Positions 1,138 through 54,200 are shown, numbered from the stretch's first letter. The stretch is DNA of 64,000 bases from an uncultured Gammaproteobacteria bacterium (GCA_964408485.1 CAYOZJ010000005.1:13203-77202); one strand, 5' to 3'. The notes: a model not told the origin generated them from the letters alone. Numbers and translations: made by a program.

Positions 1138-2802
1138 TTGACTTCTTTAATCTCTCCTGAGAGACTATCTTATATGCAATTTCTTAAGCAGATCTCCTGG
1201 AGAGCATATCTAGTCATCTTTTTATTTATTCTCGCCTACTTACTATTAGGAATAATCAAACACAATCACTACTTATCTGGTTACGATTTAGCAGTATCGG
1301 ATCAAGTTATGTGGAAATATAGCGTTTTCCATAATCCTCTTACTACAATTCATGCATATCCTTTTACCTATATGTTTGAGGATCACATTGAATTTATTTA
1401 TGTATTCCTGTCTCCTATTTTTTGGTTGTGGAATACTGTTATTGCGCTTATTAGCATTCAAGCAATATTTTTCTGTCTATCAGGAATTCCCATGTATTTG
1501 CTAGCACGAAAAAAGGGATTACATGAAATTCTTTCACTGACTCTTTTATTTTCTTATTTATTTTTCTTTGGTACACAAAATGCTCTTTGGAATGATGTAC
1601 ACAGCAATGTCTTTGGCGTAAGTTTTCTTGCATGGATGATTTATTTTCTTGAATCAGGAAATACTCTTTGGCTTTGGATTAGTTTTTTCTTTTGTATTAC
1701 AGCAAAAGAAGACATGGCATTTTTAACTGGCGCGGTTGGAGCTGTGTGGCTTCTCAAAAGCGTAAAGCGTAAAGCATTAAGCGTAAAAAACTTAAAGCCT
1801 GTCATCTCGAGCATGCCGCTTCGGGGAAGCAAATACTCTTGGGGTAATGCGAGAGATCTCGTTGAAAGATTTCTCACTTTCGTTCGAAATGACAATATAA
1901 AAACCTCACTCCTTCTTATCTTCTTTTCCCTTTTCTATCTTCTTTTAGTATTTGTTGTATACTTTCCACACTTTACCCCAGGATATAGATTTTCCGGCAA
2001 TGAGAGTCTCCTTGCAAACACACTCCATTGGAATTACTTAGTTGATACAGTGTCAAAGCGACAAATCATTGTCTACTCATTGGGTTGGTTTGGATTTTTA
2101 CCTATTCTAAGTCCATTGTATTTACTCCCCTGGTTTGCAGATATTTTTCATTTCTTTGTCTTAGGACATGCAGTAGATTCTGCAGCAGAAATTTTTCTCC
2201 ATTACCGAGTAAGCATGGCGCCACTTCTTCTTTGGCCAACAATAGAAGGAATACAATTCCTCCTGCAAAGAGCAAACAGACTACCGACTACCGCTGCAGT
2301 CCGTAGTCCGAAAGCCCTAGGCACTACTCTTCAGCTTTTTCTTGCTCTCTACCTTCTTGTTTGCGCTTTTGCTTTACAATACACGCTTCACCTTCCCATA
2401 AGCTATTTGACCAAATCCTGGTTTTGGCATACACCTGCCTCTGTTATAACGATAAACAATACGCTCAAGTATTTACCAAAAAATGCATCTGTTGTTAGTC
2501 AAAATAATATTACGCCACACATTGCCCATAGAGACACTATTTTTACGCTTTGGCCAACTACCAATGGATTTAAAACGCTTGCGGATTCTCCTTGTGGTAA
2601 GTTGACTTGTCCATGGTTTCACTGGGTTGGTAATCCACAGTACATGATTGTTGACTCGTCAAGCGATTTTGATATTCGTCACTTTCTCCAAAATAGACCT
2701 GACTTTTTGGACGCCCTGAATACATTTGAAAAACTTAAAAAAATATCTGTAGTCCACCGTGAAGGCACCACTACTTTGTATAAAGTTCTTCAAAATCCAT
2801 AA
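1138..2802 (+). CDS. Polytopic membrane protein, DUF2079-like
   Basis: N-terminal GYDLAVSDQVMW motif and many TM segments resemble the DUF2079 family. Start uncertain: TTG at 1138 or ATG at 1174. Carries in-frame repeat insertions C1 (1758-1790), A4 (1815-1837) and B3 (1869-1894). Confidence 0.5.
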   Translation: MTSLISPERLSYMQFLKQISWRAYLVIFLFILAYLLLGIIKHNHYLSGYDLAVSDQVMWKYSVFHNPLTTIHAYPFTYMFEDHIEFIYVFLSPIFWLWNTVIALISIQAIFFCLSGIPMYLLARKKGLHEILSLTLLFSYLFFFGTQNALWNDVHSNVFGVSFLAWMIYFLESGNTLWLWISFFFCITAKEDMAFLTGAVGAVWLLKSVKRKALSVKNLKPVISSMPLRGSKYSWGNARDLVERFLTFVRNDNIKTSLLLIFFSLFYLLLVFVVYFPHFTPGYRFSGNESLLANTLHWNYLVDTVSKRQIIVYSLGWFGFLPILSPLYLLPWFADIFHFFVLGHAVDSAAEIFLHYRVSMAPLLLWPTIEGIQFLLQRANRLPTTAAVRSPKALGTTLQLFLALYLLVCAFALQYTLHLPISYLTKSWFWHTPASVITINNTLKYLPKNASVVSQNNITPHIAHRDTIFTLWPTTNGFKTLADSPCGKLTCPWFHWVGNPQYMIVDSSSDFDIRHFLQNRPDFLDALNTFEKLKKISVVHREGTTTLYKVLQNP

Positions 2803-4650: not shown

Positions 4651-5988
4651 ATGGCTATACAACCCGGCACTCCAGAAATTACACCACCTAAAGCTAAAAG
4701 CACCAAGGATACTCCTCCATTAACTCCCTTTCATTCTCAATATGTGGAACGTTTAGGACCTAATGGCGAAATAACCAGGTATCGGCTGCGTCAGTCAGGC
4801 GAAGGAAACTCAGGCAACTTGTATGACCTATCTCATCCTGATGTAGATTTTTGGCGAATAAACCAATATAGAACCCTTATGGAAAACACTATTAAGCCAT
4901 ATAAAGTCTTGAGCTCAAAAATGCATGACATAGAACTTTTTTCCAAACCGGAATCAAGACAGCGCCCTATTGTACAAAAGAACTTACAAGACAGCCTAAA
5001 TCAATTACTTGGAGGAGCAACTATCCTTTCATCAGAAATATCTCGCACCATGCGAGAAGCAACTCAAGAAGGAAGTGTAGCGCTAACTATTGGTTCATTT
5101 TTTAAGCATGTTGCCAATGATGGACCAAGGAGTAATTTAGAAATACCTCTTTCTTGGCTTGCAACATCAAGCTTTGAGGGTTATACCATGGTAGATACTC
5201 TCGCTCGATATGTTTATGGAGTAAAAGCAGAACCGGCTGATATAACAACACAAAGAGAATCTCAACAGCAAGACATACCTCAAAGGCTTGAAAAACTGCT
5301 TGATACACAGATTCCTATGGATGTTTTGAAAAGTGCAGCAGAACGCTTGCGAAAAAATCCAGTAGGCATAACGCTCAGCATGCTTTTGCAAGAAGTAAGT
5401 AGATCTTATCCCCCATTCATGGACAATATTGCAGAAAATCTTTCGAGCCAACAACCAATAGAACAACAGTCTGCCCACCTTATGCTGAAAACTTTTCAAG
5501 AATTTATTGCTACCTATCCTGAACCCATGCTCATAAAAGATCCACCGTGGAAAGAATGGTATAACCGCATAAAAAATAATCGCCTATTGGGAAAACCACT
5601 ATTCTCTCGCCAATCCTTTACACCAGAGGAAATGCTTAAAATACTGATAGGAGCTAAAAGCAGAGATAAAAGCATATCTAAAAAAACAGATCAGTTTATG
5701 AGCGCCTTGCATAATGCACCAAGTCAGGTTGGTAAAATGACTATGAATGATGCAATGGAACAAGTGAAAAAAACTTATCCTGATGGAATAATTCCTGGAA
5801 TAGAAGCTGCTGCAAAAACAAATGCAGCATTAAATAATCAGCCCTTCGAAGGAAGACTTCCTCTCTCACCGAATCAGGAAAGATATATAAGAAGAGTACG
5901 AAAAGAAGACAGAGAGAGCATACGATACTATCTGGAGCAGAATAACTACTTGCTTAATTTGTATCAGAAATATGTAGGCTTATTTTAG
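4651..5988 (+). CDS. Hypothetical protein (445 aa)
   Basis: Long intact ORF; no family recognised. Confidence 0.5.
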   Translation: MAIQPGTPEITPPKAKSTKDTPPLTPFHSQYVERLGPNGEITRYRLRQSGEGNSGNLYDLSHPDVDFWRINQYRTLMENTIKPYKVLSSKMHDIELFSKPESRQRPIVQKNLQDSLNQLLGGATILSSEISRTMREATQEGSVALTIGSFFKHVANDGPRSNLEIPLSWLATSSFEGYTMVDTLARYVYGVKAEPADITTQRESQQQDIPQRLEKLLDTQIPMDVLKSAAERLRKNPVGITLSMLLQEVSRSYPPFMDNIAENLSSQQPIEQQSAHLMLKTFQEFIATYPEPMLIKDPPWKEWYNRIKNNRLLGKPLFSRQSFTPEEMLKILIGAKSRDKSISKKTDQFMSALHNAPSQVGKMTMNDAMEQVKKTYPDGIIPGIEAAAKTNAALNNQPFEGRLPLSPNQERYIRRVRKEDRESIRYYLEQNNYLLNLYQKYVGLF

Positions 5989-7139: not shown

Positions 7140-8105
7140 ATGACAGACGATACAACAAAATTAGTAGAGGAAGCCATGGAAGAGGCTCAGGACGAACCTA
7201 CTACAGTAACAGAAACAGAAGAAGTTTTCAAAGAGCAAACTCCTGCAGAAAAAGCAGAAGAAGTAGTTGAAGAAGAATCGAAAGATGAAGAAGCAACTGC
7301 ACCGGAGCTTATTGCAGAAGAAGCAGTTGAGCTTGAAAACAAGCCTGAAGAATCATCCGACGCCGAGGCTATGGATGACAAGCCTCAAGTAGAAGAAGTT
7401 TCCAATGAAGAAATAAAGGTTGAAGAAACACCAGTAGAAGAATCCCCTGTCATTTCGAACGAAAGTGAGAAATCTAATACAGACGAGATTGCCGCGTCGC
7501 AAGCTCCTCGCAATGACGATAAGAATGATGAAAAACCTCAAGATGTTTTAGCTGAAGAGAAAAAGGAAATTGTTATTCCAGATAATGCAAAATGGTACAT
7601 TATTCATACCTATGCTGGGCACGAAAATAAAGTGGCAAAAGCTCTTAGACAGCGAGCAGAAACCATGGGTTTTGCAGATAAAATCTTTGATATTATTGTC
7701 CCAACAAGAGAAGTTACTAAAGTTGCAGGCGGTAAAAAGTCTCAAGTCCAAGAAAAAATCTTCCCAGGATATGTTATTGTCCGAATGGTCTTAACTGATG
7801 AGTCATGGATTTTAGTGCGCACTACTCCAGGCGTAACAGCCTTTATTGGTGCAGGCAATAAGCCAACCCCAATCTCAGAAAAAGAAGTAGAAGCAATCCA
7901 GAAATTTATGAAGGTAGAAGAACCTTTATACAAAGCATCTTTTGTTGTTGGTGAGGCTGTAAAGATAGTCGATGGTCCATTTGCTGATTTCTTGGGTACT
8001 ATTGATAGTATTGATGAAACAAAAGGCAAACTTAGAGTGTTAGTCTCTATCTTTGGTCGAGAAACACCAGTTGAGTTAGACCTTTTACAGGTTAGTAAAA
8101 TCTAA
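7140..8105 (+). CDS. nusG: Transcription termination/antitermination factor NusG with a ~140-aa acidic N-terminal extension
   Basis: NGN domain (KWYIIHTYAGHENKV) and KOW domain (FVVGEAVKIVDGPFADFLGTI). The Glu/Asp-rich N-terminal extension contains in-frame repeat element B1 (7449-7517). Confidence 0.9.
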   Translation: MTDDTTKLVEEAMEEAQDEPTTVTETEEVFKEQTPAEKAEEVVEEESKDEEATAPELIAEEAVELENKPEESSDAEAMDDKPQVEEVSNEEIKVEETPVEESPVISNESEKSNTDEIAASQAPRNDDKNDEKPQDVLAEEKKEIVIPDNAKWYIIHTYAGHENKVAKALRQRAETMGFADKIFDIIVPTREVTKVAGGKKSQVQEKIFPGYVIVRMVLTDESWILVRTTPGVTAFIGAGNKPTPISEKEVEAIQKFMKVEEPLYKASFVVGEAVKIVDGPFADFLGTIDSIDETKGKLRVLVSIFGRETPVELDLLQVSKI

Positions 8106-8106
8106 T

Positions 8107-8331
8107 ATGGCAGGAGAACTTACATTAAAGCAAAGGTTTGTAGGAAAATCCTCTGGAAGACCATCAGGTGGAGTCGTCTATGATACAGAAAAACGAGCTT
8201 TCACGGATGGAAGAGATGCTGAACCTGCCACGCGAGCTGAAAAACTTGCTGTCGCAGGAACCGGAGGAAGAAGGCCAAAAAGTGGTTCAGTATGGGTATT
8301 TAATCAAAGCGGAGAAGCAATAAAGCTATAA
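8107..8331 (+). CDS. Hypothetical small basic Gly-rich protein (74 aa) in nusG-rplK insertion
   Basis: ATG 1 nt after the nusG stop; GC-richer than its surroundings; no family recognised. Confidence 0.3.
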   Translation: MAGELTLKQRFVGKSSGRPSGGVVYDTEKRAFTDGRDAEPATRAEKLAVAGTGGRRPKSGSVWVFNQSGEAIKL

Positions 8332-8335
8332 ACTT

Positions 8336-8560
8336 ATGTCAGACAGAAAAACTATATCAAATAAAGCAGCCAAAAGAAGAAGGGGTGGAACAAACCAGGA
8401 GTTTGCTGGGGTAGTTGCACCAAAAAGTGAATCAACCCAATTAACAGAATTACACTTGCATCAAGAACGAACCGGGACAGTACCACCGTCTACTCCTAAG
8501 CGTAAGGTTTTTGATCCGTTTGGTCGGTGGAGTAAAGCAGATGGGAGAAATATAGAATAA
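8336..8560 (+). CDS. Hypothetical small basic protein (74 aa) in nusG-rplK insertion
   Basis: Tightly packed between the preceding ORF and rplK (stop 1 nt before the rplK ATG). Confidence 0.3.
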   Translation: MSDRKTISNKAAKRRRGGTNQEFAGVVAPKSESTQLTELHLHQERTGTVPPSTPKRKVFDPFGRWSKADGRNIE

Positions 8561-8561
8561 T

Positions 8562-8981
8562 ATGGCTAAAAAAATAAAGACATTAATTAAATTAAATATT
8601 CCAGCCGGAAGTGCAACACCAGCACCACCAGTTGGTACAGCTTTAGGCCCACACGGACTTCCTATTATGGAATTCGTGAAAGCATTTAACGACAGAACGC
8701 AAGATCAAAAAGGCAATATCTTACCAGTTGTTATTACTGTCTTTGAAGACCGAACATTTAGTTTTATTACCAAGCGCCCACCTATTGCTGAAATGATTAA
8801 AAAAGCACTAGGAAGAGCAGGATCTGGTAAGCCAGGAAAAGAATCAGCAGGCACACTTTCTATGACACAAGCTCGAAAGATTGCAGAAGATAAATTGGAA
8901 GATTTGAATACAGACAACGTAGATCAGGCAGTAAAAATCGTTGCAGGAGTAGCACGAAGTATGGGAGTAGAAGTCAAGTAA
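8562..8981 (+). CDS. rplK: 50S ribosomal protein L11
   Basis: MAKKIKTLIKLNIPAGSATPAPPVGTALGPHG is the canonical L11 N-terminus. Confidence 0.95.
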   Translation: MAKKIKTLIKLNIPAGSATPAPPVGTALGPHGLPIMEFVKAFNDRTQDQKGNILPVVITVFEDRTFSFITKRPPIAEMIKKALGRAGSGKPGKESAGTLSMTQARKIAEDKLEDLNTDNVDQAVKIVAGVARSMGVEVK

Positions 8982-9097: not shown

Positions 9098-10033
9098 ATG
9101 GGAAAAGTTAAAACAATAGATCCAGAAAAACAAGAGCAATTAGCAAAAGAAAAAGCGGCAAAAGAAGCTGAAAGACTGGCACAAGTTGAGGCTGCACGTT
9201 CGGCTGCTTCTGTGAGAGCAAAGGATAAGGTTGGAAAAGAATTAAGAAGCAAGAATCAAGAATCAAGCTCAGAAGAGAAAAAAGAAACAAGTGTCATTCT
9301 GGGGAACGAAGTGACTCCAGAATCTAACGTAGATGCTGGACAAGCCAGCATGACAGATCAAAAAGAACCCAAAAAAAGTAAAAAGGTCTCTAAATATGCT
9401 GCTAAAAAAGGCGCAAAAGGACGAGAAAGGTCTGAAAATTACAAAAAAGCACTTGCTCAAGTAGACAAATCAAAGCAGTATTCTATAAAAGAAGCGTTAG
9501 CACTCTTAGATAAAACTCATTTGGCAAAATTCGATGAAACAGTAGAGTTACACATAAATACAGCATCAGCTGGCCTTTCTGGACAAGTAACTCTCCCTCA
9601 TGGTACAGGTAAAAACGTTAGAGTTGCTATTCTTGCACCAAGTAAAGACGCAAAAGCAGCAGATGACCTTTTGAAAGAAATTGAATCAGGAAAAATTAAT
9701 TTTGATATTTTAGTGGCAACACCTGATGCAATGCCTAAGCTAGCGCGAGTTGCTAAAGTACTCGGACCTCGAGGACTTATGCCAAATCCAAAGAATGGTA
9801 CTGTTAGTCCAAATCCAGAAGCTGTTGCCAAGCAATATGAAGGTGGACAAATGCATTACAAAACAGAAGCAAAGACTCCTATCATGCATTTAGCAGTTGG
9901 TAAGCTTTCTTTTGGACCAGAAAAACTTGAACAAAATATTACTGCAATGTTAAAAGCAGTAAAAATGGAAAATATTAAAAAAGTTGTTGTTAAATCAACA
10001 ATGTCTCCAGCAGTCAGACTTCTTGTCAAATAA
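9098..10033 (+). CDS. rplA: 50S ribosomal protein L1 with a Lys/Glu-rich N-terminal extension of ~84 aa
   Basis: C-terminal 228 aa align with L1 (SKKVSKYAAKKGAKG...VATPDAMPKLARVAKVLGPRGLMPNP). ATG at 9350 is an alternative start. The extension contains a caagaat-type short repeat. Confidence 0.9.
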   Translation: MGKVKTIDPEKQEQLAKEKAAKEAERLAQVEAARSAASVRAKDKVGKELRSKNQESSSEEKKETSVILGNEVTPESNVDAGQASMTDQKEPKKSKKVSKYAAKKGAKGRERSENYKKALAQVDKSKQYSIKEALALLDKTHLAKFDETVELHINTASAGLSGQVTLPHGTGKNVRVAILAPSKDAKAADDLLKEIESGKINFDILVATPDAMPKLARVAKVLGPRGLMPNPKNGTVSPNPEAVAKQYEGGQMHYKTEAKTPIMHLAVGKLSFGPEKLEQNITAMLKAVKMENIKKVVVKSTMSPAVRLLVK

Positions 10034-23183: not shown

Positions 23184-23711
23184 ATGGATGACTATTCGTT
23201 GAAAAAGTTTTTTACCTCTCCTTTTCCGATAAAAGTACTCCCCTACTTATTACTTATCTTTGCTGCTTTAGGGTTTTTGGATGCAGGATATCTTACTATT
23301 CAACACTACCAACATGCTATTCCTCCATGCACTGTTGGAGGCTGTGAGACAGTCTTAACAAGCAGTTTTGCCACAGTTGCAGGTATTCCCCTCGCACTTT
23401 TGGGAGTTGGGTTTTATCTAGCCATATTGGTTCTAACAGGAATTTTTATAAGCTTTCGTCATTCTGGGGACGAACAACGTGAGGACTCCAGAATCTCAAA
23501 CAACCCAGATTCTGGACGCACTACGTTTGCCAGAATGACAGTTACTATTCTCTTTACTCTCTGTTCTCTCGGCCTCTTGGTTGGCCTGGGACTTATTGCT
23601 CTTCAAGCATTTATTCTCCATGCATGGTGTTATTATTGTCTATTTTCCGAGCTGATTGATTTTCTACTGTTTGACACAGCATGGTGGCTGTGGAATAATA
23701 ATCGCGCATGA
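23184..23711 (+). CDS. Vitamin K epoxide reductase (VKOR) family protein
   Basis: GYLTIQHY...CTVGGCETVLTSSFATVAGIPLALLG and a C-terminal CYYC. Carries an in-frame palindrome ccagaatctcaaacaacccagattctgg at 23488-23515. Confidence 0.8.
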   Translation: MDDYSLKKFFTSPFPIKVLPYLLLIFAALGFLDAGYLTIQHYQHAIPPCTVGGCETVLTSSFATVAGIPLALLGVGFYLAILVLTGIFISFRHSGDEQREDSRISNNPDSGRTTFARMTVTILFTLCSLGLLVGLGLIALQAFILHAWCYYCLFSELIDFLLFDTAWWLWNNNRA

Positions 23712-30516: not shown

Positions 30517-30575
30517 GTCATTCCTACGAAGGCAGGAATCTAGTTTCTGGATCCCGGATCAAGTCCGGGATGACA
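30517..30575. repeat. B-family-like hairpin element between argS and the MBL gene (overlaps the last 5 codons of the MBL gene)
   Basis: gtcattcctacgaaggcaggaatc ... gatcccggatcaagtccgggatgac. Confidence 0.5.
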
Positions 30576-32598: not shown

Positions 32599-33027
32599 AT
32601 GAATCCAAATCAGGACTACAAACAACTATTAACAGAAGTTATTAAAAAACAAATTGTTATTTTAGGTCCAGATATTACGCTTTCCAAAGCTCGCAATGTG
32701 AAAGGACTTGTGGTTGCAAATGATGGAACTGTTACTGCATATACGGGCGAGCCTCAAGCAGTAACTCAAGCATTGATTGATCAATTTGTCCAACTTTCTG
32801 GCCTTATCGTAAAGCAGACAATGGAACCACTTCTCTCGATGCCACAACCAACACTTCAAAACCCTTCTGTCATTGCGAGTGAAACGAAGCAATCTAATAC
32901 TAATAACGAGATTGCCGCGTCGCAAGCTCCTCGCAATGACGTGAGTACACCAGCTCAACCTATTACATCTGTGGCTACTCCCCCTACAACCACCCCTACT
33001 CCTGCTAAAAATCCATTGGCAGCATAA
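32599..33027 (+). CDS. Hypothetical protein with a Pro/Thr-rich C-terminus
   Basis: ORF translationally coupled to the receiver gene; contains in-frame repeat element B2 (32869-32940). Confidence 0.4.
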   Translation: MNPNQDYKQLLTEVIKKQIVILGPDITLSKARNVKGLVVANDGTVTAYTGEPQAVTQALIDQFVQLSGLIVKQTMEPLLSMPQPTLQNPSVIASETKQSNTNNEIAASQAPRNDVSTPAQPITSVATPPTTTPTPAKNPLAA

Positions 33028-40629: not shown

Positions 40630-43317
40630 TCAAAATACTACAAAATTAACTATTTTCCCAGGCACGTAGATAACTTTTCTTACTGTCTTTCCTTCTAAAT
40701 GAGCTTTTACTTTCCCTGATGCCTGTGCTGCTTGTTCTATATCAGATTGCTTCGCATCGCTCGCAATGACGAGAGTGTCGCGGAGTTTTCCATTAATTTG
40801 GACCGCGACCGTAACTGTATCAGAAACTATCAAACTATCATCGTGGCTAGGCCACTTCTCCTGATGAATTGACGTAAATGCCTCATCTCCAGCCTCACTA
40901 TCAGTAAGCTTATTCAACTGCCAAAGCTCTTCTGTTATATGCGGAGCAAACGGGGACAAGATAATCAGAAAATTCTTGAATTCTTCCTCCATAATTTGAG
41001 GCTTAGCATCTAAATAATTAAGCCACTTCATCATTGCTGCAACAGCTGTATTATTTTTTATATCTGCAATGTCTTCCCCAACCTTTTTTATGGCTGTATG
41101 CATCTGAAAGAGATCTTCTCTTGTCATTCCATTTATTGCCTGAGCTTGTCGAAGGCCCTCCCCGACCAAACCTTTCGATTCGCTTCGCTCACTCAGGGAA
41201 GAATTAACAACCCTTGGATACAAGTCCCAAACACGCTTGAGGAAGCGAAACATCCCGTACATTGCTGTTGTTGACCATGGCCCTGTTGCCTGGTACGGCA
41301 TCATAAAAGATAAATAGACACGCACAGCATCTGTACCAAACTCTTTAACAACATCATCCGGATTGATCACATTACCCTTGGACTTACTCATCTTATTGCC
41401 ATCTGGACCCAAAACAATGCCATGCTGAACACGCTTAAGGGCAAATTCATCAAAGTCCACCATACCTAGGTCTTTAAAGAATTTTGTGAAAAATCGTGCG
41501 TAAAGAGTGTGTCCCAAGGTATGCTCTCCCCCTCCAAAATAAATATCTAAAGGCATAAGCTTCGCAACCTCTTTAGGATCAAATGGACCTTTTGTGTACT
41601 GAGGATCAACATATCGGTAGTAATACCAAGCACTATCGAAAAATGTGTCTAATGTCTCTGGATCACGCTTTGCCTCACGTCCACATTTTGGACAAGCTAC
41701 TTTTAGCCACTCGCTATTACTTTCCAAAGGCGCTTTTCCTTTTGGCTGATAATCAACATCGTAGGGAAGATTTACTGGTAAATCTTTTAATGGTACCGGA
41801 ACCATTCCATCTATATCGCAATATATCATTGGAACGGGTGTTCCCCAATATCTTTGGCGACTAACAGACCAATCTCGAAGATGATATTGAATTTTTCTCT
41901 TACCAATGCCTTTCTGCTCTATCTGTTGAGTCATCTTTTCTTTTGCATCCTTACTGCTTAAAGCATTGAATTCTCCTGAATTAAATAATTCTGATTTCTC
42001 TTTATATGTTGTTTTTATTTCTGAATAGCTCCAGAATCCTTCTTCTTCTACTTTGGCACCATCTTCTGTTGGTTTAACTACAAATGTAATTGGTAAATTA
42101 AATTTTTCCGCGAATTCATGATCACGCTCATCATGACCAGGAACACCCATAACTGCACCTGTTCCATAGTTCATTAAAACGTAATCCGCAACCCAAACAG
42201 GAACTTCTTCATTAGTAAAGGGATTAATGACATACCCACCTGTAAAAACACCTGTTTTATCTTTTGTTTCAATGAGTCTATCACGCTCTGTCTTTTCTGA
42301 AGCGTCTTTAACATAGGCTTGAACTTCTTTTTTTATCGTGTCGTCCTTAACTTGTTTTAGAATCTCGTCAACTAATGGATTCTCAGGCGCTAAGACAACG
42401 AAGGAAACGCCAAAAATAGTATCCAGGGCTGTGGTAAATACTTCAATTTTGAATTTTGAATTTTGAATTTTGAATTCGAGCTGAACGCCTTCAGATCGTC
42501 CTATCCAATCATTTTGCGCTGTCATGACGGATTTTGGCCAGTCTACCCCATTACCATCTTTATTCCATAAAAGTTGTTCTGCATAGTCTGTAATGCGTAA
42601 AAACCACTGCTCTACTTCCTTTTGCACAACGGTATCGCCACATCTCCAGCATTTCCCATTTTCTACATGCTCATTGGCAAGGACTGTTTGGTCTGTTGGG
42701 CACCAATTGGAAAGCGTCTTGCCTCTATAAGCAATTCCTTTTTCATACATTTTTTCAAAAATCCATTGATTCCAAATATAATATTCAGGCAGACATGTTA
42801 CAGTTACATGATCCCAATCAATCATTGTACCCATGGTCTCGAATTGCATAGTCATGGTCTCTATATTCTTGAGCGTCCAGTCTTGTGGGTGAATATTACG
42901 CTTGATTGCTGCGTTTTCTGCAGGAAGACCGAAAGCATCGTATCCCATGGGGAAGAAAACATTATAACCTTGCATACGCTTAAAACGAGAGAGCACATCT
43001 GGGGCAACGAAGGTAAACCAATGACCAATATGTAAATCTCCTGAAGGATATGGAAGCTCAACAAGCGTATAAAACTTACCCTTCGATTTCCTAGACTCAG
43101 GACTAGGTTCGCCGAACCGTCGCACTTGCTCACTCAGGGAAAATTTTTTGCCTGAGCTGTGCCGCTTCGGGGAAGCAAATACTGAGTCGAGTGTCGAAGG
43201 CTTATCGCTATTACTGTCAAACTTGTATAGCCCTGCCTCACGCCACACGTCTTGCCATTTCTTTTCTATGTCCTTTGGAAAATATTTTTTCCATTCTGAT
43301 TGCGCTTGCTTATTCAT
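40630..43317 (-). CDS. leuS: Leucine--tRNA ligase
   Basis: HIGH (DLHIGHWFTF) and KMSKS (KMSKSKGN) motifs; 895 aa. Contains in-frame repeat insertions A3 (41139-41201) and A2 (43121-43201), a B-like segment (40745-40785), and the heptanucleotide repeat at 42445-42472. Its last ~30 coding nt (40640-40669) are the E-repeat. Confidence 0.95.
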   Translation of the reverse strand: MNKQAQSEWKKYFPKDIEKKWQDVWREAGLYKFDSNSDKPSTLDSVFASPKRHSSGKKFSLSEQVRRFGEPSPESRKSKGKFYTLVELPYPSGDLHIGHWFTFVAPDVLSRFKRMQGYNVFFPMGYDAFGLPAENAAIKRNIHPQDWTLKNIETMTMQFETMGTMIDWDHVTVTCLPEYYIWNQWIFEKMYEKGIAYRGKTLSNWCPTDQTVLANEHVENGKCWRCGDTVVQKEVEQWFLRITDYAEQLLWNKDGNGVDWPKSVMTAQNDWIGRSEGVQLEFKIQNSKFKIEVFTTALDTIFGVSFVVLAPENPLVDEILKQVKDDTIKKEVQAYVKDASEKTERDRLIETKDKTGVFTGGYVINPFTNEEVPVWVADYVLMNYGTGAVMGVPGHDERDHEFAEKFNLPITFVVKPTEDGAKVEEEGFWSYSEIKTTYKEKSELFNSGEFNALSSKDAKEKMTQQIEQKGIGKRKIQYHLRDWSVSRQRYWGTPVPMIYCDIDGMVPVPLKDLPVNLPYDVDYQPKGKAPLESNSEWLKVACPKCGREAKRDPETLDTFFDSAWYYYRYVDPQYTKGPFDPKEVAKLMPLDIYFGGGEHTLGHTLYARFFTKFFKDLGMVDFDEFALKRVQHGIVLGPDGNKMSKSKGNVINPDDVVKEFGTDAVRVYLSFMMPYQATGPWSTTAMYGMFRFLKRVWDLYPRVVNSSLSERSESKGLVGEGLRQAQAINGMTREDLFQMHTAIKKVGEDIADIKNNTAVAAMMKWLNYLDAKPQIMEEEFKNFLIILSPFAPHITEELWQLNKLTDSEAGDEAFTSIHQEKWPSHDDSLIVSDTVTVAVQINGKLRDTLVIASDAKQSDIEQAAQASGKVKAHLEGKTVRKVIYVPGKIVNFVVF
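42445..42472. repeat. Tandem heptanucleotide repeat (aattttg) x4 inside leuS
   Basis: Direct reading; encodes LEFKIQNSKFKIEVF. Confidence 0.8.
43121..43201. repeat. A-family palindromic repeat element inserted in frame in leuS
   Basis: Near-identical to 28975-29060 in argS. Confidence 0.85.
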
Positions 43318-43767: not shown

Positions 43768-43817
43768 GTCATTCTGAGTGAAACGAAGAATATATCCTTC
43801 ACTCCGTTCAGGATGAC
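43768..43817. repeat. B-family-like hairpin element (intergenic)
   Basis: gtcattctgagtgaaacgaag...ccgttcaggatgac. Confidence 0.5.
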
Positions 43818-48214: not shown

Positions 48215-51200
48215 ATGGAATATTTACAAAAGTTTAGAATTTATTTACTTTCATTAACACCTGCACCGTCAGCAGTAACTGTGAAAAATTACTGCTTAGA
48301 CGTGAAGCACTTTATTTCGTGGTCAGAACAGAAAAATCACGCACCCTTCGATCCATCAAAAGTTACCCAGGATGAAATAGAAAAGTTTCGACAGGATGAG
48401 AATGGACATCTCTCTGCTCGCTCACTCGATAGGCACGTATCAAGCTTACGAAAATTCTTCCACAGCCTTAAATTACAAGGCGTATTATCAACAAGTCCAT
48501 TTGAAAATACAGTATCTACTCAATTACCAACAGATCCCTACAAGCTAAAACAATTCAAAGATTTCCTTTATGTCTATAACGCAAGTAATCTAACTATAAA
48601 AAACTACATCATTGATGTGAAGCAGTTTTTCAAATGGGCAGAGGAAAAAATTCAAGCTCAGACAGACCAGGAGTCTGAAGAAATTACCCCTCTTTCCTAC
48701 CTAAGTAATGACCTTTTAGCCACATACCGAGATGAATTATTCTCAGGAAATGTTTTCTCAGCCTCATCTATCAACCGAAAGCTCTCTTCTCTTCGCAAGT
48801 ATATTGGCTGGGCAAAGTCACAAAATTTCTTGGAAAACGAATTAGACTCCCGTAATAATCCAAACGAAGTAGCAAACATAGCTAGCGCTCACACTTCTAG
48901 CGTGCTAGAAGTGAATCAGAACAAAGCGGAAAGCGAAAAGCGTAAAGAATTAGAAACCAAAAAAGAAGCAAATGGGAAAAACCTTGACGCTTTACCCTTA
49001 ACGCTTAACGCTGGTTACTCTCCTTTTCCTCCTCTTCGTCTTGCTCAAAAGATATCAAAAGGATTCAATTATGGTTTGGACGTTGCTATTATCGCTCCTC
49101 TTGCTAAGCTCGTATTGCAAGGTACAAAAGTGCTCTGGACACTCCAAGGAAAACCTCTTTTTGTTGCAGCAAAGAAATCATTAAGGCTAGCAAGTCCTGT
49201 GAAAAATATATCTAAGTTTGCAGTACAGGCTGGAGAAGTTTCCACAGCTAACTTTTCATGGTATCAAAAAATTTGGCATCACGCACAAAACACACGACCT
49301 AACTGGTACAGAAGATATCATCAACTACCAGTCGCCCATTATTTTAACTGGGCGATACTCATGATTGTTATGACAATCATTGGTGTTGGTTTTTATAATA
49401 GCTTTATTGCAAAGCCACAGAATAGTAAACCACTTTTAGCAGCAGCCCAACCAAACAGAATTCTTTCTTTCCAGGGTAGACTTACTGATAGCAGCAATAA
49501 TCCAATCACCACTTCTTCAAATTTGCGGTTTGCTATTTATACAGACGCAACTTCAACAGGTTCTGCCCAACTATGGCAAGAATTAGACAATGTTACGCCG
49601 GATGCTAACGGCGTATTTTCTGTTTTGCTTGGAAAAAACAGTAGCATTCAACAATCGCTCTTTGCTAATAATGCGAATTTATATTTGGGTATTACTGTCG
49701 AACAGACACCCGAGCTCACTCCTCGCCAACAACTCGCAACAGTTGCCTATGCGACCAACGCAGAAACACTCCAAGGTCTACCACCTATCACCCAGTCTGG
49801 CGCGGGAACAAGCAATGTCGTCCTCGCACTAAATTCTTCTGGTAATTTATCCATTGGTGCAGCATCCACTTTTCAGACCGTTGGTGGCGCATTTACGCTT
49901 GCTGGAGATACGCTTGTCTTAAATACCAATCCCGGTACAAATGGTAACATAACCATAACCCCAGACGGCCTAGGTTTTATAGATTTGCAAAAGCCACTTG
50001 TTAATACAACACAAAACAATAACATTCCATCAGCTTCAGGCTCTGTGGAAATTGATGATACGCTTGCAATTCTTGCAACATCAGATGCTGTCCCTGCCCA
50101 AACAATTAATCAAGACGGTGCAGGTGCACTTTTCACAGCTTCAGCTGGAGGTATTAGTAAATTCACCATTGGCAATTCAGGGACAATAACTGCCAGCAAT
50201 TACAATACAGCAGGTGGCGTTTTTTATGCAGATGGTACTGGTCTTTTTCTCCAAACAACAGCAGGCGCGATTGGCCAATGTCTTACATCTAATGGATCTT
50301 CTGGTCCAAGCTGGACAGCATGTAGTGGTGGATCTGCAAACAACTTTTGGACAATTACAAATGGCGCATTGTATCCAGTGAATACAACACTTGATGTCCT
50401 CTTTGGCGGAACTGCATCAAATGGCGCTAATTTTGCCTTTATTAACAACGCACCAGGATCCGGCACACCAACAGCATCTGTTTCAGGAAATATTACGCTT
50501 AATAGCGCAGGCCTCATTCAGACAACAAATAACCAACAGCTGACTATTGGCGGCGATACGACAGGCAATATCGTCCTCAAGCCATTGAATGGTGCAGGAA
50601 CTGTTACCTTATCTGGCTACGCAACAGGAATAATTCATTCAACGTCTGGAGTTTTATCTTCAAGTGCTGTTGACTTGGCAAGCGGAGATGTAACTGGTGT
50701 GTTGCCTTTAGCAAATGGGGGTACAAATAATAGCTTGGTTGCAGATAATGGTGGCATCGTCTATTCAGACGCAACAAGACTTCAAGTTTTGGCGCATGCG
50801 GGATCTGCAGGACTTTGTCTTACCTCTGGTGGCGCAGGCGCCCCAAGCTGGGCGAGCTGTTCGGGAAGTAATTCCAACTTCTGGAATGTAAATAACGGCG
50901 TCATTTACCCAAGCAATTCAACGCTTGATTTTATTTTGGGTGGAGACGGCGCAACAACATCTGCAAAATTTGCAGTCCTGAATATGACAGGTTCTGGAAC
51001 ACCAGTTGCATCAGTAAGTAGTGGTTTGAATGGAAATGCTACATATATCGCAGCAGATGGAACACTTCAGACAACAAGAAACCATGCGCTAACAATTGGC
51101 GGAAGCACAACTGGAAACATAATCCTTAGCCCGCTTAACAGCTTGGGATATGTCCAACTAAATGGAACAGTCAATTCTAATCTTGTCCCAACAATCACTG

Positions 51201-54200
51201 ACACCTATAACTTGGGCTCACCAAGTAATGAATGGAATAACTTATATGTTAAAAATCTTGTTGTCTCAGGAAGCATCGCAGGATTTTGGCAAAGAAATTC
51301 AGGTGTCCTCTCCCCTACCAATATTACAGACGACTTAGCGATTGGCGGTATAGCAACAAATACTGCAAGATTCCAAGTCTTTGCAAATACAGGCAATGCA
51401 ACAACTGCAGGTAATTTAACTTTCACCGGAAATGGTAGCCAAATTCAGACAACAAGTAACCAAACTCTCACTCTTGGAGGAAATACCACAGGAGGTATCG
51501 TGTTATCTCCAAGTAATGGAACAGGCACAATTGGTCTCAATGCAAGCAACATAACAACAAATCAAACAACTGTAAATCTTCTCAACACCACAGCAACAAC
51601 GGTTAATTTTGCAGGCGCTGCAACAACAGTAAGTATTGGCAATTCAGGAGGATCTACAACAATCAATGGCGGTTTAGTGGTAAATGCAGACACACAGCTT
51701 CTTGGCAATACAACGTTAGGCGACAGCTCATCTGACACAATTGCCTTTATTGGCCAAGTAAATACCAATATTCTCCCTTCCACAACAAATGCTCGTGATC
51801 TTGGCTCCCTTGCTCAACAATGGAATAATATTTATGGAAATCACATTTTTAGCAATGGTGTTGAATTGTCCCAATTCTTCCAGAGAAATTTTGGCGTTAT
51901 ATCCCCATTGAATATCACTGACGACTTAGCTGTCGGTGGAACAGCAACAAATACTGCTAAATTTCAGGTATCTGGCTTAACAGGCAATGCAACAACTACG
52001 GGTACACTTACGTTTGATGGGACGGGTAACCTTATCCAGACAACTAAATTCCAGGATTTAACAATTGGTGGGACAACAACTGGAAATATTACACTCAGTC
52101 CAAAAAATGGAACAGGCACAGTTACCATTGCAGGGCTGTCATCGGGTGTAGTACATAGTACCGGGGGCATCCTCTCTTCAAGTAACGTAAACTTAACCAG
52201 TGAAGTAACCGGTATCCTTCCTATTGCCAATGGAGGCACAAATACTAATACAATAGGTTCGGCAGGAAGCATTGCCTACTCAACCGGTACTGCATATGCA
52301 TTTAATTCAGTGGGATCCACAGGTCAATGTCTTGTATCTAATGGATCTGGAGCCCCTAACTGGACATCATGTACTACTGCAGCAGGCGCAACAAATTACT
52401 GGACACTCGATGGCGGCAATGGAATTTTGTATCCTGTTAATACAACACTTGATGTGTTGTTTGGTGGAACATCGAGTAACTCTGCTAATTTTGCATTTCT
52501 TAATAATGCACCAGGATCTGGTACACCAACTGCATCCATTTCCGGTAACTTAACTCTCAATAGCGCTGGAAACATTCAAACAACAAATAACCAACCACTG
52601 ACCATTGGCGGCAATACAACGGGAAGTGTTACCTTAGCGCCAAGCAATGGAAATGGAACGCTCAATCTTAATGCTACAAATATTAATACAAATCAGACAA
52701 GTGTAAATCTTCTCAACACAACAGCAACAACAATTAATTTTGGAGGTGCAGCAACAAGTATTAATATCGGTAATGCAGGAGGCTCAGCAACATTTAATGG
52801 CGGGCTTGTCGTCAATGCAGATACAACGCTTAACGGCAACACAACCTTAGGAGATAGCTCGAGTGATCGAGTCACTTTTAACGGACTAGTGAATTCAAAT
52901 ATCATTCCATCTGCAAATAATACCTATGACTTAGGCTCAATCACGAATGCATGGAATAATATTTTTGTTAACAACATTATCTCAAGTGGCAACATATCAG
53001 GACTTTGGCAAAGATTTTTGGGAGTCCTATCCCCTGTTAATATTGGCGATGACTTAGCAATCGGTGGGACAGCAACAGGTACAGCCAAATTTCAAGTGTT
53101 TGGTAACACTGGCAATGCAACAACTGCAGGTAATCTCACATTTAATGGCAATGGAGTAATTCAAGCAACAAATAATCAACCTCTTACGATTGGCGGAGAT
53201 ACAACAGGCAGTATAACAGTAGCGCCTAATAATGGTACTGGCACAGTAAATCTTAACGCTACAAATATTAATACCAATCAAACAAGTGTAAACCTACTTA
53301 ATTCTACTACTACAGCAATTAATTTTGGAGGTGCAGCAACTGCGCTTTCAATCGGTGCAGGATCTGGAACAACAACAGTTAATAATGGTCTCACAGTTAC
53401 CGGAACAAGCACCTTAAATGGCAATGTTGTTTTGGGAGCAAATAGTACCAAAACAATTACCGCAAACGGACAGTTTAATTCCTCTCTTATTCCATCAGTA
53501 ACCGATACTTACGATTTAGGATCAATTGCACTTGAGTGGAATAATCTGTATGTTAAAAATATTATTGCAGGGGGCAATGTATCTGGATTTTGGCAGAGAT
53601 TCTTGGGAGTTATTTCTCCAACAAATATCACGGACGACTTAGCAATTGGTGGAACAGCAACAAATACAGCAAGGTTCCAGGTTTTTGGAAATACAGGCAA
53701 TGCAACAACTACAGGTACACTTACTTTTGATGGGACCGGTAGCCTTATCCAGACAACACGAAACCAAGGCCTAACAATTGGAGGAGATACAACAGGAAAT
53801 ATTACGATAAAACCACTCAATGGAACAGGAACAGTCACTATTGCAGGACTTGGGACAGGAGTAGTACATAGCACAAATGGACTTCTTTCTAGTAGTGCAG
53901 TGAATTTAGCAAATGGCTCAGCAGATATAACTGGAACTCTTTCAACAAGTAATGGCGGTACGGGACAAAATTCATACGCTGGCGGCGATCTTCTGTATTA
54001 TGCATCCGGAACATCTTTATCCAAACTCACTATTGGCGGCGCAAATACAATCCTCACATCAACCGGCACAGCTCCACAATGGTCAAGTAGCCTCACACTT
54101 GGAGGCAACTTAAATGTGAATGGTAACACAACGCTTGGAGACACCGCTGGGGATACGATAACCTTTAATGGTCAAGTTAATTCCAATATTATCCCAACAA

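What the first reader, a model, noticed from the sequence alone, without database searches (positions are those of the whole stretch)
7449..7517. B-family hairpin elements (gtcattgcgag...gattgccgcgtcgcaagctcctcgcaatgac) in frame in nusG and elsewhere
Copies occur in the NusG N-terminal extension (7449-7517, encoding SNESEKSNTDEIAASQAPRNDD) and in the hypothetical gene 32599-33027 (32869-32940, encoding VIASETKQSNTNNEIAASQAPRND). Partial copies sit in the DUF2079-like gene (1869-1894, inverted) and leuS (40745-40785), and intergenic relatives are at 30517-30575 and 43768-43817. Arms of the gtcattgcgag/ctcgcaatgac type give a long imperfect hairpin. Again the coding copies stay in frame.
Basis: seen in the sequence. 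Interest (0 to 1): 0.65.

Follow-up and report, generated by a model that had tools for sequence, protein, structure and literature searches.

The report
Ssn-type hairpin repeats inside genes
The repeated segments in nusG and other genes of this candidate-phyla-radiation bacterium are copies of a widespread selfish DNA hairpin, of the kind that small Ssn (GIY-YIG) single-strand nucleases recognise, and they survive inside genes as short translated passengers: a known phenomenon seen here in a new host group and a new hairpin subfamily.

Summary
The 33-mer GAGATTGCCGCGTCGCAAGCTCCTCGCAATGAC occurs identically at 7485-7517 and 32908-32940. Six B-type units lie in the window where shuffles give none.

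The 69-72 nt "element" is two inverted hairpin units of 26-31 nt. Each has a (C/T)GTC tag, a palindrome that starts AT and ends AT, then a C. Single units sit in the DUF2079 gene and in leuS.

These are DNA-level repeats, not protein motifs. The same unit is read on opposite strands in different genes. It lies in non-coding DNA of relatives, and the exact 31-mer occurs in 91 metagenome stretches of 33-63% GC. Some NusG orthologues lack it; others carry different units.

The anatomy fits the CGTC-tagged REP superfamily and the NTS/SRM hairpins cut by Ssn nucleases. In six other contigs a 96-99 aa GIY-YIG gene, 50% identical to gonococcal SsnA, is flanked by B units. In one contig the exact 31-mer brackets it on both sides.

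I read the window's dimers as gene-less derivatives of such Ssn mini-elements. No Ssn gene lies in the 64 kb, and mobilisation is inferred.

The leuS unit is not an insertion; it occupies native codons. This is a new member of a known kind.

The parts
7449..7474 (+). B-type unit GTCATTTCGAACGAAAGTGAGAAATC, the left arm of the nusG dimer, read as VISNESEKS
   Evidence: It is identical to the unit at 1868-1893. It is also identical, flank included, in the orthologous nusG of L002 and L003.
7475..7486 (.). 12-nt spacer between the two inverted units in nusG
7487..7517 (-). B-type 31-nt unit GTCATTGCGAGGAGCTTGCGACGCGGCAATC, the right arm of the nusG dimer, read antisense as EIAASQAPRND
   Evidence: The exact 31-mer also occurs in L001 and in 91 metagenome stretches. 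In L246 it brackets an Ssn-like gene on both sides.
32869..32894 (+). B-type unit GTCATTGCGAGTGAAACGAAGCAATC, the left arm of the dimer in ORF 32599-33027
32910..32940 (-). Same 31-nt unit as at 7487-7517, the right arm. With the left arm it folds into a long hairpin.
   Evidence: DNA fold -18.7 kcal/mol, z = -4.8
1868..1893 (-). Single B-type unit inside the DUF2079-family gene, antisense to the gene, read as RFLTFVRND
   Evidence: Pfam DUF2079 match
40745..40770 (-). Single B-type unit GTCATTGCGAGCGATGCGAAGCAATC in leuS, in the sense orientation, read as VIASDAKQS. It occupies native codons and is not an insertion.
   Evidence: It is 25/26 identical to the commonest B unit among the viral-contig matches. 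LeuRS aligns gap-free to solved LeuRS structures across it. Relatives are compared.
30517..30574 (.). Intergenic head-to-head dimer of two other subfamilies: GTCATTCCTACGAAGGCAGGAATC (+) and GTCATCCCGGACTTGATCCGGGATC (-). It lies between the metallo-beta-lactamase-fold gene and argS.
   Evidence: The right unit is the only one in the window that matches the published SRM search motif. It closely resembles a unit that flanks an Ssn homologue in L316.
43768..43817 (.). Intergenic head-to-head dimer GTCATTCTGAGTGAAACGAAGAATA / GTCATCCTGAACGGAGTGAAGGATA
   Evidence: A near-identical dimer lies at a different locus in L002, at 289-338.
9293..9354 (.). Dimer of a related subfamily (stems ATTCTGGGG and ATGCTGG) in the N-terminal extension of rplA, read as VILGNEVTPES..DAGQASMT
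   Evidence: z = -3.0. The units are absent from the L002 orthologue.
23458..23539 (.). Dimer of the same related subfamily inside the VKOR-family gene
   Evidence: z = -5.1; the reading frame is
7353..7380 (-). Possible degenerate unit (GTCATCCATAGCCTCGGCGTCGGATGA) read as SSDAEAMDD. Uncertain.
   Evidence: Read directly from the sequence. A similar peptide, SSDAKAMD(D/E)K, appears at varying positions in NusG orthologues. Its hairpin is weak and it was not verified.

Best explanation
The repeats are small tagged DNA hairpins of the CGTC/TGTC-tagged REP superfamily. They are the same kind as the Neisseria NTS/dRS3 repeats and the 'Ssn-related motifs' (SRM).

Each unit reads (C/T)GTC, then a palindrome that starts AT and ends AT, then C. 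In the B subfamily the palindrome is a 5-bp outer stem (ATTGC/GCAAT or ATTTC/GAAAT). Inside it is a GA-rich internal loop and a variable, covarying inner stem-loop.

Elsewhere, two such units with their tags pointing outward bracket a gene of about 300 nt for a single-domain Ssn-family GIY-YIG nuclease. That nuclease family binds these hairpins as single-stranded DNA and cuts a few bases 5' of the GTC tag.

The 69-72 nt elements in nusG and in ORF 32599-33027 have the same two-ended layout without the gene. I therefore read them as non-autonomous (REPIN- or MITE-like) derivatives. Single units would be half-elements.

Inferred, not shown: they were spread in trans by an Ssn-type nuclease, encoded elsewhere in this genome or formerly present.

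In this gene-dense genome most landing places are coding. The copies that persist keep the frame, lack stop codons and sit in tolerant segments: acidic N-terminal extensions, loops and tails. There they are translated as passenger peptides of about 9-24 residues with no demonstrated function.
For: Anatomy:
- All 14 units in the window have a c or t before GTC and a palindrome beginning AT. Twelve of the 14 have C right after the palindrome. Eight different stems all keep complementarity.
- These are the defining features of CGTC-tagged REPs (PMC3733652).
- They are also the positions that matter for SsnA: the three bases upstream of the palindrome for cleavage, and the C after it for binding (PMC11893778).

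Structure: among 146 distinct B-unit inner segments, the closing stem averages 2.45 bp against 0.58 in shuffles. Many stems are of different sequence, for example GC/GC, GGCC/GGCC, GCCTC/GAGGC and GTCCCGA/TCGGGAC.

DNA-level and mobile:
- The same unit occurs on both strands of genes and in non-coding DNA.
- NusG orthologues either lack units or carry different ones.
- The rplA units are absent from L002.
- The same intergenic dimer sits at non-orthologous loci in the window and in L002.
- The exact 31-mer occurs in 91 metagenome stretches of GC 0.33-0.63.

Link to Ssn:
- In L246 the exact 31-mer lies at 5571-5601(+) and 5938-5968(-), around a 96-aa GIY-YIG gene.
- L279 has units on both sides of its gene.
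- Four contexts chosen by protein alone all have B units within about 100 nt of the gene. Their source labels are Burkholderiales, Oscillospiraceae and Spirochaetaceae; the fourth (GC 0.34; one sample is a gut metagenome) has no taxon label.
- These proteins are 50% identical, gap-free over 90 residues, to gonococcal SsnA (E = 2e-33 and 3e-35). I identified that SsnA as a 94-aa ORF with Y6, Y17 and E64, flanked by NTS repeats.
- Ssn homologues in viral contigs are flanked by other GTCAT/GTCAC hairpins. One of these closely resembles the unit at 30550-30574.

Translation: the nusG dimer lies downstream of the last canonical in-frame start codon and upstream of the NGN domain.
Against: - No Ssn-like gene lies in the 64-kb window (tblastn). 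The rest of the genome could not be reached, because its proteins are not on record.
- Ssn nucleases have been shown to bind and cut ssDNA, not to transpose anything. Mobilisation is an inference from the IS-like layout.
- The published SRM search motif matches only one unit in the window and none of the B units.
- Single B units and the nusG hybrid dimer do not fold better than shuffles with standard DNA parameters. Their structure rests on family covariation, not on thermodynamics.
- The leuS unit sits in place of native codons with no length change against solved LeuRS structures. The rplA dimer region is only 3 residues longer than in L002. Simple insertion therefore does not describe every copy.
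Confidence: 0.65

Rival explanations
1. The units are inert relics. They entered the lineage long ago, or by transfer, and are no longer mobilised. They are merely inherited and slowly decaying inside tolerant protein segments.
For: - No nuclease gene lies in the window.
- The left nusG unit is at the same place, with the same 9-nt flank, in the window and in L002, so at least that copy is inherited.
- The nusG dimer is a hybrid that no longer forms a long hairpin.
- Other CPR contigs have few units: 0.045 per kb, mostly chance hits.
Against: - The 26-nt unit and its flank are 100% identical between the window and L002, while the surrounding extension is too diverged to align. That argues for constraint or recent homogenisation.
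- The right arm differs between the two orthologues, which indicates turnover.
- The two 33-mers in the window are identical.
- Identical dimers sit at non-orthologous loci.
Confidence: 0.25
2. They are host-selected RNA or DNA structural elements that act as terminators, mRNA stabilisers or regulatory hairpins, as proposed for classical REPs. Their presence in genes would be incidental.
For: - The intergenic copy at 30517-30574 fills the 48-nt gap between two co-oriented genes.
- REPs are often found just 3' of genes and are thought to act in RNA (PMC3733652).
- Several dimers fold significantly better than shuffles.
Against: - Ten of the 14 units lie inside ORFs, in both orientations relative to the gene.
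- The 43768-43817 copy lies between divergent genes.
- No T-run follows the hairpins.
- SsnA does not bind the RNA form of the NTS (PMC11893778).
- No Rfam family matches.
Confidence: 0.1
3. They are REP/REPIN elements mobilised by a RAYT (an IS200/IS605-like Y1 transposase).
For: They share the overall logic: short tagged palindromes, inverted doublets, and a doublet layout like REPINs.
Against: - The tag is (C/T)GTC, not GTAG.
- CGTC repeats were found not to flank tyrosine-transposase genes (PMC3733652).
- Clustering ORFs near 91 copies of the 31-mer recovered a GIY-YIG gene next to the unit and no Y1 transposase.
Confidence: 0.05
4. The shared segments are conserved protein motifs selected at the amino-acid level.
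For: - Unit-like peptides recur in NusG orthologues (VISNESEKS, EIAASSSTPRND).
- The leuS unit encodes a peptide that fits the native V-x-x-x-D-A motif.
Against: - The same DNA is read on opposite strands to give unrelated peptides.
- Copies lie in non-coding DNA.
- The repeats are identical at synonymous positions.
- Some orthologues lack the segment.
Confidence: 0.02

Closest known systems
NTS / Ssn-related motifs (SRM) and the Ssn family of GIY-YIG single-strand nucleases (Chenal et al. 2025, PMC11893778)
   Same: - A GTC tag lies three bases before the palindrome, the palindrome starts AT, and a C follows it.
- Units bracket a single-domain GIY-YIG gene of 94-99 aa, as in NTS-ssnA-NTS.
- The B-associated nuclease is 50% identical to gonococcal SsnA.
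   Different: - The B hairpin has a 5-bp outer stem, a GA-rich internal loop and a variable inner hairpin, instead of an 8-bp stem with a 4-nt loop.
- It is not found by the published SRM search motif.
- Here most copies are inside genes (10 of 14), against 2% in N. meningitidis.
- The host is a Patescibacteria genome, and no ssn gene is seen in the 64 kb.
CGTC-tagged REP superfamily (Di Nocera et al. 2013, PMC3733652), which includes Neisseria dRS3
   Same: - The tag is CGTC or TGTC.
- A and T occupy the first two stem positions.
- Head-to-head dimers predominate, including hybrid dimers.
- Intragenic in-frame copies are known.
- No dedicated transposase is known.
   Different: - The four described families have stems of 8-9 bp and loops of 4-5 nt. 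The B units do not.
- The superfamily was described in five phyla, and candidate phyla radiation bacteria were not among them.
Rickettsia palindromic elements (RPE; RPE-4 and RPE-6 are CGTC-type according to Di Nocera et al.)
   Same: Palindromic repeats inserted in frame in protein-coding genes of a small genome, translated as extra peptide segments.
   Different: - RPE-1 is longer (this rests on my own knowledge).
- The host lineage is different.
- Sequence relatedness of the B units to RPEs was not tested.
REPIN / RAYT systems
   Same: Inverted doublets of short palindromes, seen as non-autonomous partners of a single-copy enzyme gene that is flanked by the same repeats.
   Different: - The tag differs (GTAG).
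- The enzyme class differs (a Y1 HUH transposase rather than a GIY-YIG nuclease).
- No RAYT was found next to B units.

Membership tests
CGTC-tagged REP superfamily | Unpaired 5' tag CGTC (or TGTC) next to the stem | tested here: met
   All 14 units have c or t followed by GTC before the palindrome.
CGTC-tagged REP superfamily | Complementary A and T at the first and second stem positions | tested here: met
   Every stem starts AT and ends AT: ATTGC, ATTTC, ATTCT, ATGCT, ATTCC, ATCCC, ATCCT.
CGTC-tagged REP superfamily | Stem of 8-9 bp and loop of 4-5 nt (families CGTC-1 to CGTC-4) | tested here: not met
   The feature is met only by the unit at 30550-30574 (8 bp stem, 5 nt loop). B units have a 5-bp outer stem, an internal loop and an inner hairpin. 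B is therefore a separate family within the superfamily.
CGTC-tagged REP superfamily | Predominantly head-to-head dimers; high copy number in the genome | tested here: inconclusive
   Six of the eight loci are head-to-head dimers. Only 64 kb is available, so genome-wide copy number is unknown: 14 units, of which 6 are B units against 0 expected.
NTS/SRM-Ssn system | GTC immediately upstream of the palindrome and C immediately after it, the positions critical for SsnA cleavage and binding | tested here: met
   GTC is present in 14 of 14 units and C after the palindrome in 12 of 14. The two units at 43768-43817 end in ATA.
NTS/SRM-Ssn system | Match to the published degenerate SRM search sequence | tested here: not met
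   Only 30547-30575 matches, against a shuffle mean of 0.14. None of the B units matches.
NTS/SRM-Ssn system | Units spatially associated with, or bracketing, an ssn gene | tested here: met
   The feature is met for the B family in other contigs: L246, L279, L295, L296, L297 and L298. It is not seen in the window itself.
NTS/SRM-Ssn system | The associated protein is an Ssn-family member: a single GIY-YIG domain of about 94 aa, homologous to SsnA | tested here: met
   - The proteins are 96-99 aa and match only Pfam GIY-YIG above its threshold.
- They are 50% identical, gap-free, to the gonococcal 94-aa SsnA orthologue, E = 2e-33 and 3e-35.
- The catalytic Tyr, Tyr and Glu have the same spacing.
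- Assignment to CDD cd10448 itself could not be run.
NTS/SRM-Ssn system | An ssn gene in the same genome as the repeats | not testable with these tools
   There is none in the 64-kb window. The source genome is not in the protein or contig collections.
NTS/SRM-Ssn system | Sequence-specific binding and cleavage of the hairpin as ssDNA | not testable with these tools
   This needs biochemistry.
REPIN/RAYT | GTAG tag and a flanked Y1 (RAYT) transposase gene | tested here: not met
   The tag is (C/T)GTC. No Y1 transposase appears among the ORFs that recur near 91 copies of the 31-mer.
Rickettsia palindromic elements | Palindromic repeat inserted in frame in ORFs, with element-free orthologues | tested here: met
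   - nusG: orthologues P0001, P0002 and P0004 lack it.
- rplA: the units are absent in L002.
- leuS is an exception, an in-place copy.
- Sequence homology to RPEs was not tested.

The most novel reading that the evidence does not exclude
The B hairpin and its roughly 300-nt ssn gene may form one of the smallest autonomous mobile elements, about 400 bp, moving between phyla. The exact 31-mer occurs in contigs of 33-63% GC. The nuclease is 72-92% identical in contigs labelled Burkholderiales, Clostridia, Spirochaetaceae and Deferribacteraceae.

In gene-dense candidate phyla radiation genomes, its gene-less derivatives may do more than insert. They may overwrite native codons by a nick-and-copy (conversion-like) process, as the gap-free leuS copy and the length-neutral rplA copy suggest. 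That would make selfish hairpins a regular source of new sequence in essential proteins such as the NusG and L1 extensions and the LeuRS C-terminal domain.
Probability: 0.2. Interest if true: 0.7.

Novelty: new member of a known kind. Interest (0 to 1): 0.45.

Why it matters
- It extends tagged-hairpin (SRM / CGTC-REP) elements to Patescibacteria. It also defines a hairpin subfamily, with its cognate Ssn nuclease, that the published search motif misses.
- It shows that in a streamlined genome these elements live mostly inside genes, including essential ones (nusG, rplA, leuS). This parallels the Rickettsia palindromic elements.
- It explains part of the variable N-terminal extensions of NusG and L1 in this lineage.
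- Practically, it flags a source of spurious 'conserved peptides' (VIASEAKQS, LLRFARND and the like) in protein databases.
- It supplies a candidate ssDNA nuclease-and-site pair for the Ssn toolbox.

Tried and rejected
1. The 78-aa GIY-YIG gene near two units in the related contig L001 looked like a candidate partner. Eighty genome loci of that family (L004-L083) show no units within 250 nt of the gene: 25 mostly chance hits in about 560 kb. The protein is only 25% identical to SsnA. Rejected.
2. The published SRM regular expression caught one unit only.
3. Clustering ORFs in 80 viral contigs that carry B units gave only phage structural genes and no recurrent nuclease.
4. Rfam gave nothing but two tRNAs in the whole window at gathering score, and nothing in 8050-8620.
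5. Full-text searches for the unit sequence or its peptides found only unrelated primer matches. A search for REPs in candidate phyla radiation bacteria found nothing relevant.
6. Looking up the source contig through the exact product of ORF 32599-33027 found nothing on record.
7. A loose 'GTCAT plus any 5-bp hairpin' scan is not enriched over shuffles (29 against 20.7; 19 against 10.1). The signal lies in the specific families, not in the generic pattern.
8. Thermodynamic folding of single B units is not significant.

Full report
**Setting.** The window has about 39% GC. It carries secE-nusG-rplK-rplA, leuS, argS and other housekeeping genes. The best NusG matches that carry a name are labelled Patescibacteria, several of them Levybacteria, so this is a candidate phyla radiation (CPR) genome. 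ORFs cover roughly 84% of the window.

**Observation.** The 33-mer GAGATTGCCGCGTCGCAAGCTCCTCGCAATGAC is identical at 7485-7517 and 32908-32940, with no match in 100 shuffles. A pattern for the family, GTCATTKCGARN{9,14}GMAATC, finds six copies against 0.00 expected. The copies are 1868-1893(-), 7449-7474(+), 7487-7517(-), 32869-32894(+), 32910-32940(-) and 40745-40770(-).

**Anatomy.**
- The 69-nt (nusG) and 72-nt (ORF 32599-33027) elements are each two inverted units of 26-31 nt, separated by 12-15 nt.
- Each unit reads (c/t)GTC, then a palindrome that starts AT and ends AT, then C.
- The left unit of nusG is identical to the lone unit in the DUF2079 gene. The right units of nusG and ORF 32599-33027 are identical to each other.
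- The same layout with other stems occurs at 30517-30574 and 43768-43817 (intergenic), at 9293-9354 (rplA) and at 23458-23539 (VKOR gene).
- This gives eight different stems, all complementary.
- The homodimer in ORF 32599-33027 folds into a long hairpin (z = -4.8).
- The nusG element is a hybrid of an ATTTC-type and an ATTGC-type unit. It does not fold better than shuffles (z = -0.3).
- Single B units are not significant either.

**Family structure.**
- 120 B-pattern matches taken from 80 viral-contig loci give the consensus GTC ATTGC GA [GC GAA GC] GAA GCAAT C.
- Across 146 distinct inner segments from all loci, the inner part closes into a stem of 2.45 bp on average, against 0.58 when shuffled.
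- Many of these stems differ in sequence, for example GGCC/GGCC, GCCTC/GAGGC and GTCCCGA/TCGGGAC.
- So the hairpin is conserved as a structure: a fixed outer stem, GA-rich internal loops and a free inner hairpin.
- The window's 31-mer belongs to a 'GGAG...CGAC' variant of this scheme.

**DNA repeat, not protein motif.**
- The same 26-mer is read as VISNESEKS in nusG and as RFLTFVRND on the other strand in the DUF2079 gene.
- The two 33-mers are identical at every synonymous position.
- The 31-mer lies in non-coding DNA in the related contig L001.
- It also occurs in 91 metagenome stretches whose contigs range from 33 to 63% GC and have unrelated flanks.
- NusG orthologues with the same conserved N-terminus (P0001, P0002, P0004) lack the segment.
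- Other orthologues carry different units in their extensions: P0005 has VISNESEKSQ...DSIASLQND, P0006 has EIAASSSTPRND, P0010 has VILGSEATPESK...DAGQASMT and P0017 has VILSDSEGS.
- In the orthologous nusG of L002, the left unit and 9 nt of flank are 100% identical to the window, while the rest of the extension cannot be aligned. Its right arm is a different unit.
- The rplA units are absent from L002.
- The intergenic dimer at 43768-43817 recurs, nearly identical, at a non-orthologous place in L002.

**Translation.**
- In nusG there is no ATG, GTG or TTG in frame between codon 78 (7371) and codon 165, which lies inside the NGN domain. The dimer, at codons 104-126, must therefore be translated.
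- An ATT codon preceded by AAGGA at codon 146 cannot be excluded as a minor start. However, the long N-terminus is conserved among orthologues.
- Four of the six frames of each B dimer are open and both lengths are multiples of three. 'Staying in frame' is thus survivorship under a loose constraint.

**What it is like.**
- The tag, the AT start of the stem, head-to-head dimers, hybrid dimers and intragenic copies are the described features of CGTC-tagged REPs. That superfamily includes Neisseria dRS3 and Rickettsia RPE-4 and RPE-6, and it had no known transposase (PMC3733652).
- In 2025 the longer form of dRS3 (NTS, CGTCATTCCCGCGMAVGCGGGAATCYRG) and related 'SRM' hairpins were shown to be bound and cut as ssDNA by small GIY-YIG nucleases called Ssn.
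- The genes for these nucleases are often bracketed by the repeats.
- The three bases before the palindrome matter for cleavage and the C after it for binding (PMC11893778).
- The window's units keep exactly those positions.

**Test of the link.**
- Clustering ORFs near the 91 copies of the 31-mer recovered a 96-99 aa GIY-YIG gene 4-28 nt from the unit.
- In L246 the exact 31-mer lies on both sides of this gene, with tags outward.
- In L279 units and dimers lie on both sides of the gene.
- Four further contexts chosen only by protein all have B units within about 100 nt of the gene. Three of the proteins carry the source labels Burkholderiales, Oscillospiraceae and Spirochaetaceae. The fourth context (GC 0.34; one sample is a gut metagenome) has no taxon label.
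- The protein family is 72-92% identical across these labels.
- It is 50% identical, without gaps, to a 94-aa N. gonorrhoeae ORF that has Y6, Y17 and E64 and is flanked by NTS repeats, that is, to SsnA.
- Ssn homologues in viral contigs are flanked by other GTCAT or GTCAC hairpins. One of these is close to the window's 30550-30574 unit.

**Interpretation.**
- The window's head-to-head dimers have the two-ended layout of an ssn mini-element without the gene, as REPINs relate to RAYTs.
- The homology, the bracketing and the dispersal are shown.
- That an Ssn nuclease moves them, and that this genome has one, is inferred.
- None lies in the 64 kb, and the source genome is not in the collections.

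**Anomaly.**
- The leuS unit is 25/26 identical to the commonest B unit among the viral-contig matches.
- Even so, LeuRS aligns without a gap to solved LeuRS structures across it: VIASDAKQS against TVAADASKA.
- Closer relatives have a native loop of 7-13 residues there in the alignment, for example VVSASDKDKK.
- The single departure from the consensus (GAA to GAT) encodes the Asp of the D-A pair that the aligned solved LeuRS also has.
- The rplA dimer region is likewise only 3 residues longer than in L002.
- Some copies therefore replace sequence rather than add to it. I cannot explain how.

**Negative results.**
- A different 78-aa GIY-YIG family common in CPR genomes is not flanked by units and is only distantly related to SsnA.
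- The published SRM motif misses the B family.
- There are no Rfam matches.
- No paper names this sequence.

**Verdict.** This is a real, non-random, DNA-level hairpin repeat family. It is a new subfamily and a new host group of a known kind of element, and it is translated in frame inside essential genes. Identification as SRM / CGTC-REP type has high confidence. The mode of spread has moderate to low confidence.

Noticed in passing
window 40745-40770 (leuS): A complete B unit sits in LeuRS with no length change relative to solved LeuRS structures. Its one deviation from the consensus encodes Asp at the D-A position that the aligned solved LeuRS also has. It looks like an in-place replacement rather than an insertion.
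   Followed up: partly
window 8107-8331 and 8336-8560: Two 74-aa ORFs lie between nusG and rplK. They are also present in the related contig L002 (4051-4200 and 4202-4435). There is no Rfam match and the function is unknown.
   Followed up: partly
window 48215-63910: A single 5231-aa ORF with a large internal repeat. The same 33-mer recurs at 50956, 54910 and 58375.
   Followed up: no
window 9293-9354 and 23458-23539: Dimers of another GTCAT-tagged subfamily (ATTCTGG / CCAGAAT stems) lie in frame in the L1 N-terminal extension and in a loop of a VKOR-family membrane protein.
   Followed up: partly
L204-L294 (many from sample Ga0099364): In one metagenome the exact 31-mer is one arm of a longer, many-copy element with a conserved spacer of about 35 nt (cagacgaaaacatgacaatcggcgcaaaaagactg). 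It often lies on short contigs.
   Followed up: no
L001 5605-5841; L004-L083: A 78-aa GIY-YIG family is common in candidate phyla radiation genomes; in one case two members lie on the same 91-kb contig. It is not flanked by the hairpins and is only 25% identical to SsnA.
   Followed up: yes
L116 2670-2856; L138 8305-8491: Viral contigs carry head-to-tail arrays of five B units at 37-42 nt spacing.
   Followed up: no
L304 (NZ_CP119140.1, 2.17 Mb): A whole N. gonorrhoeae chromosome is filed as a plasmid in the plasmid collection, with almost no annotation. It served here to recover the SsnA orthologue and its NTS flanks.
   Followed up: yes
window 7353-7380: A possible degenerate unit encodes SSDAEAMDD. 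A similar peptide appears at shifting positions in several NusG orthologues.
   Followed up: no
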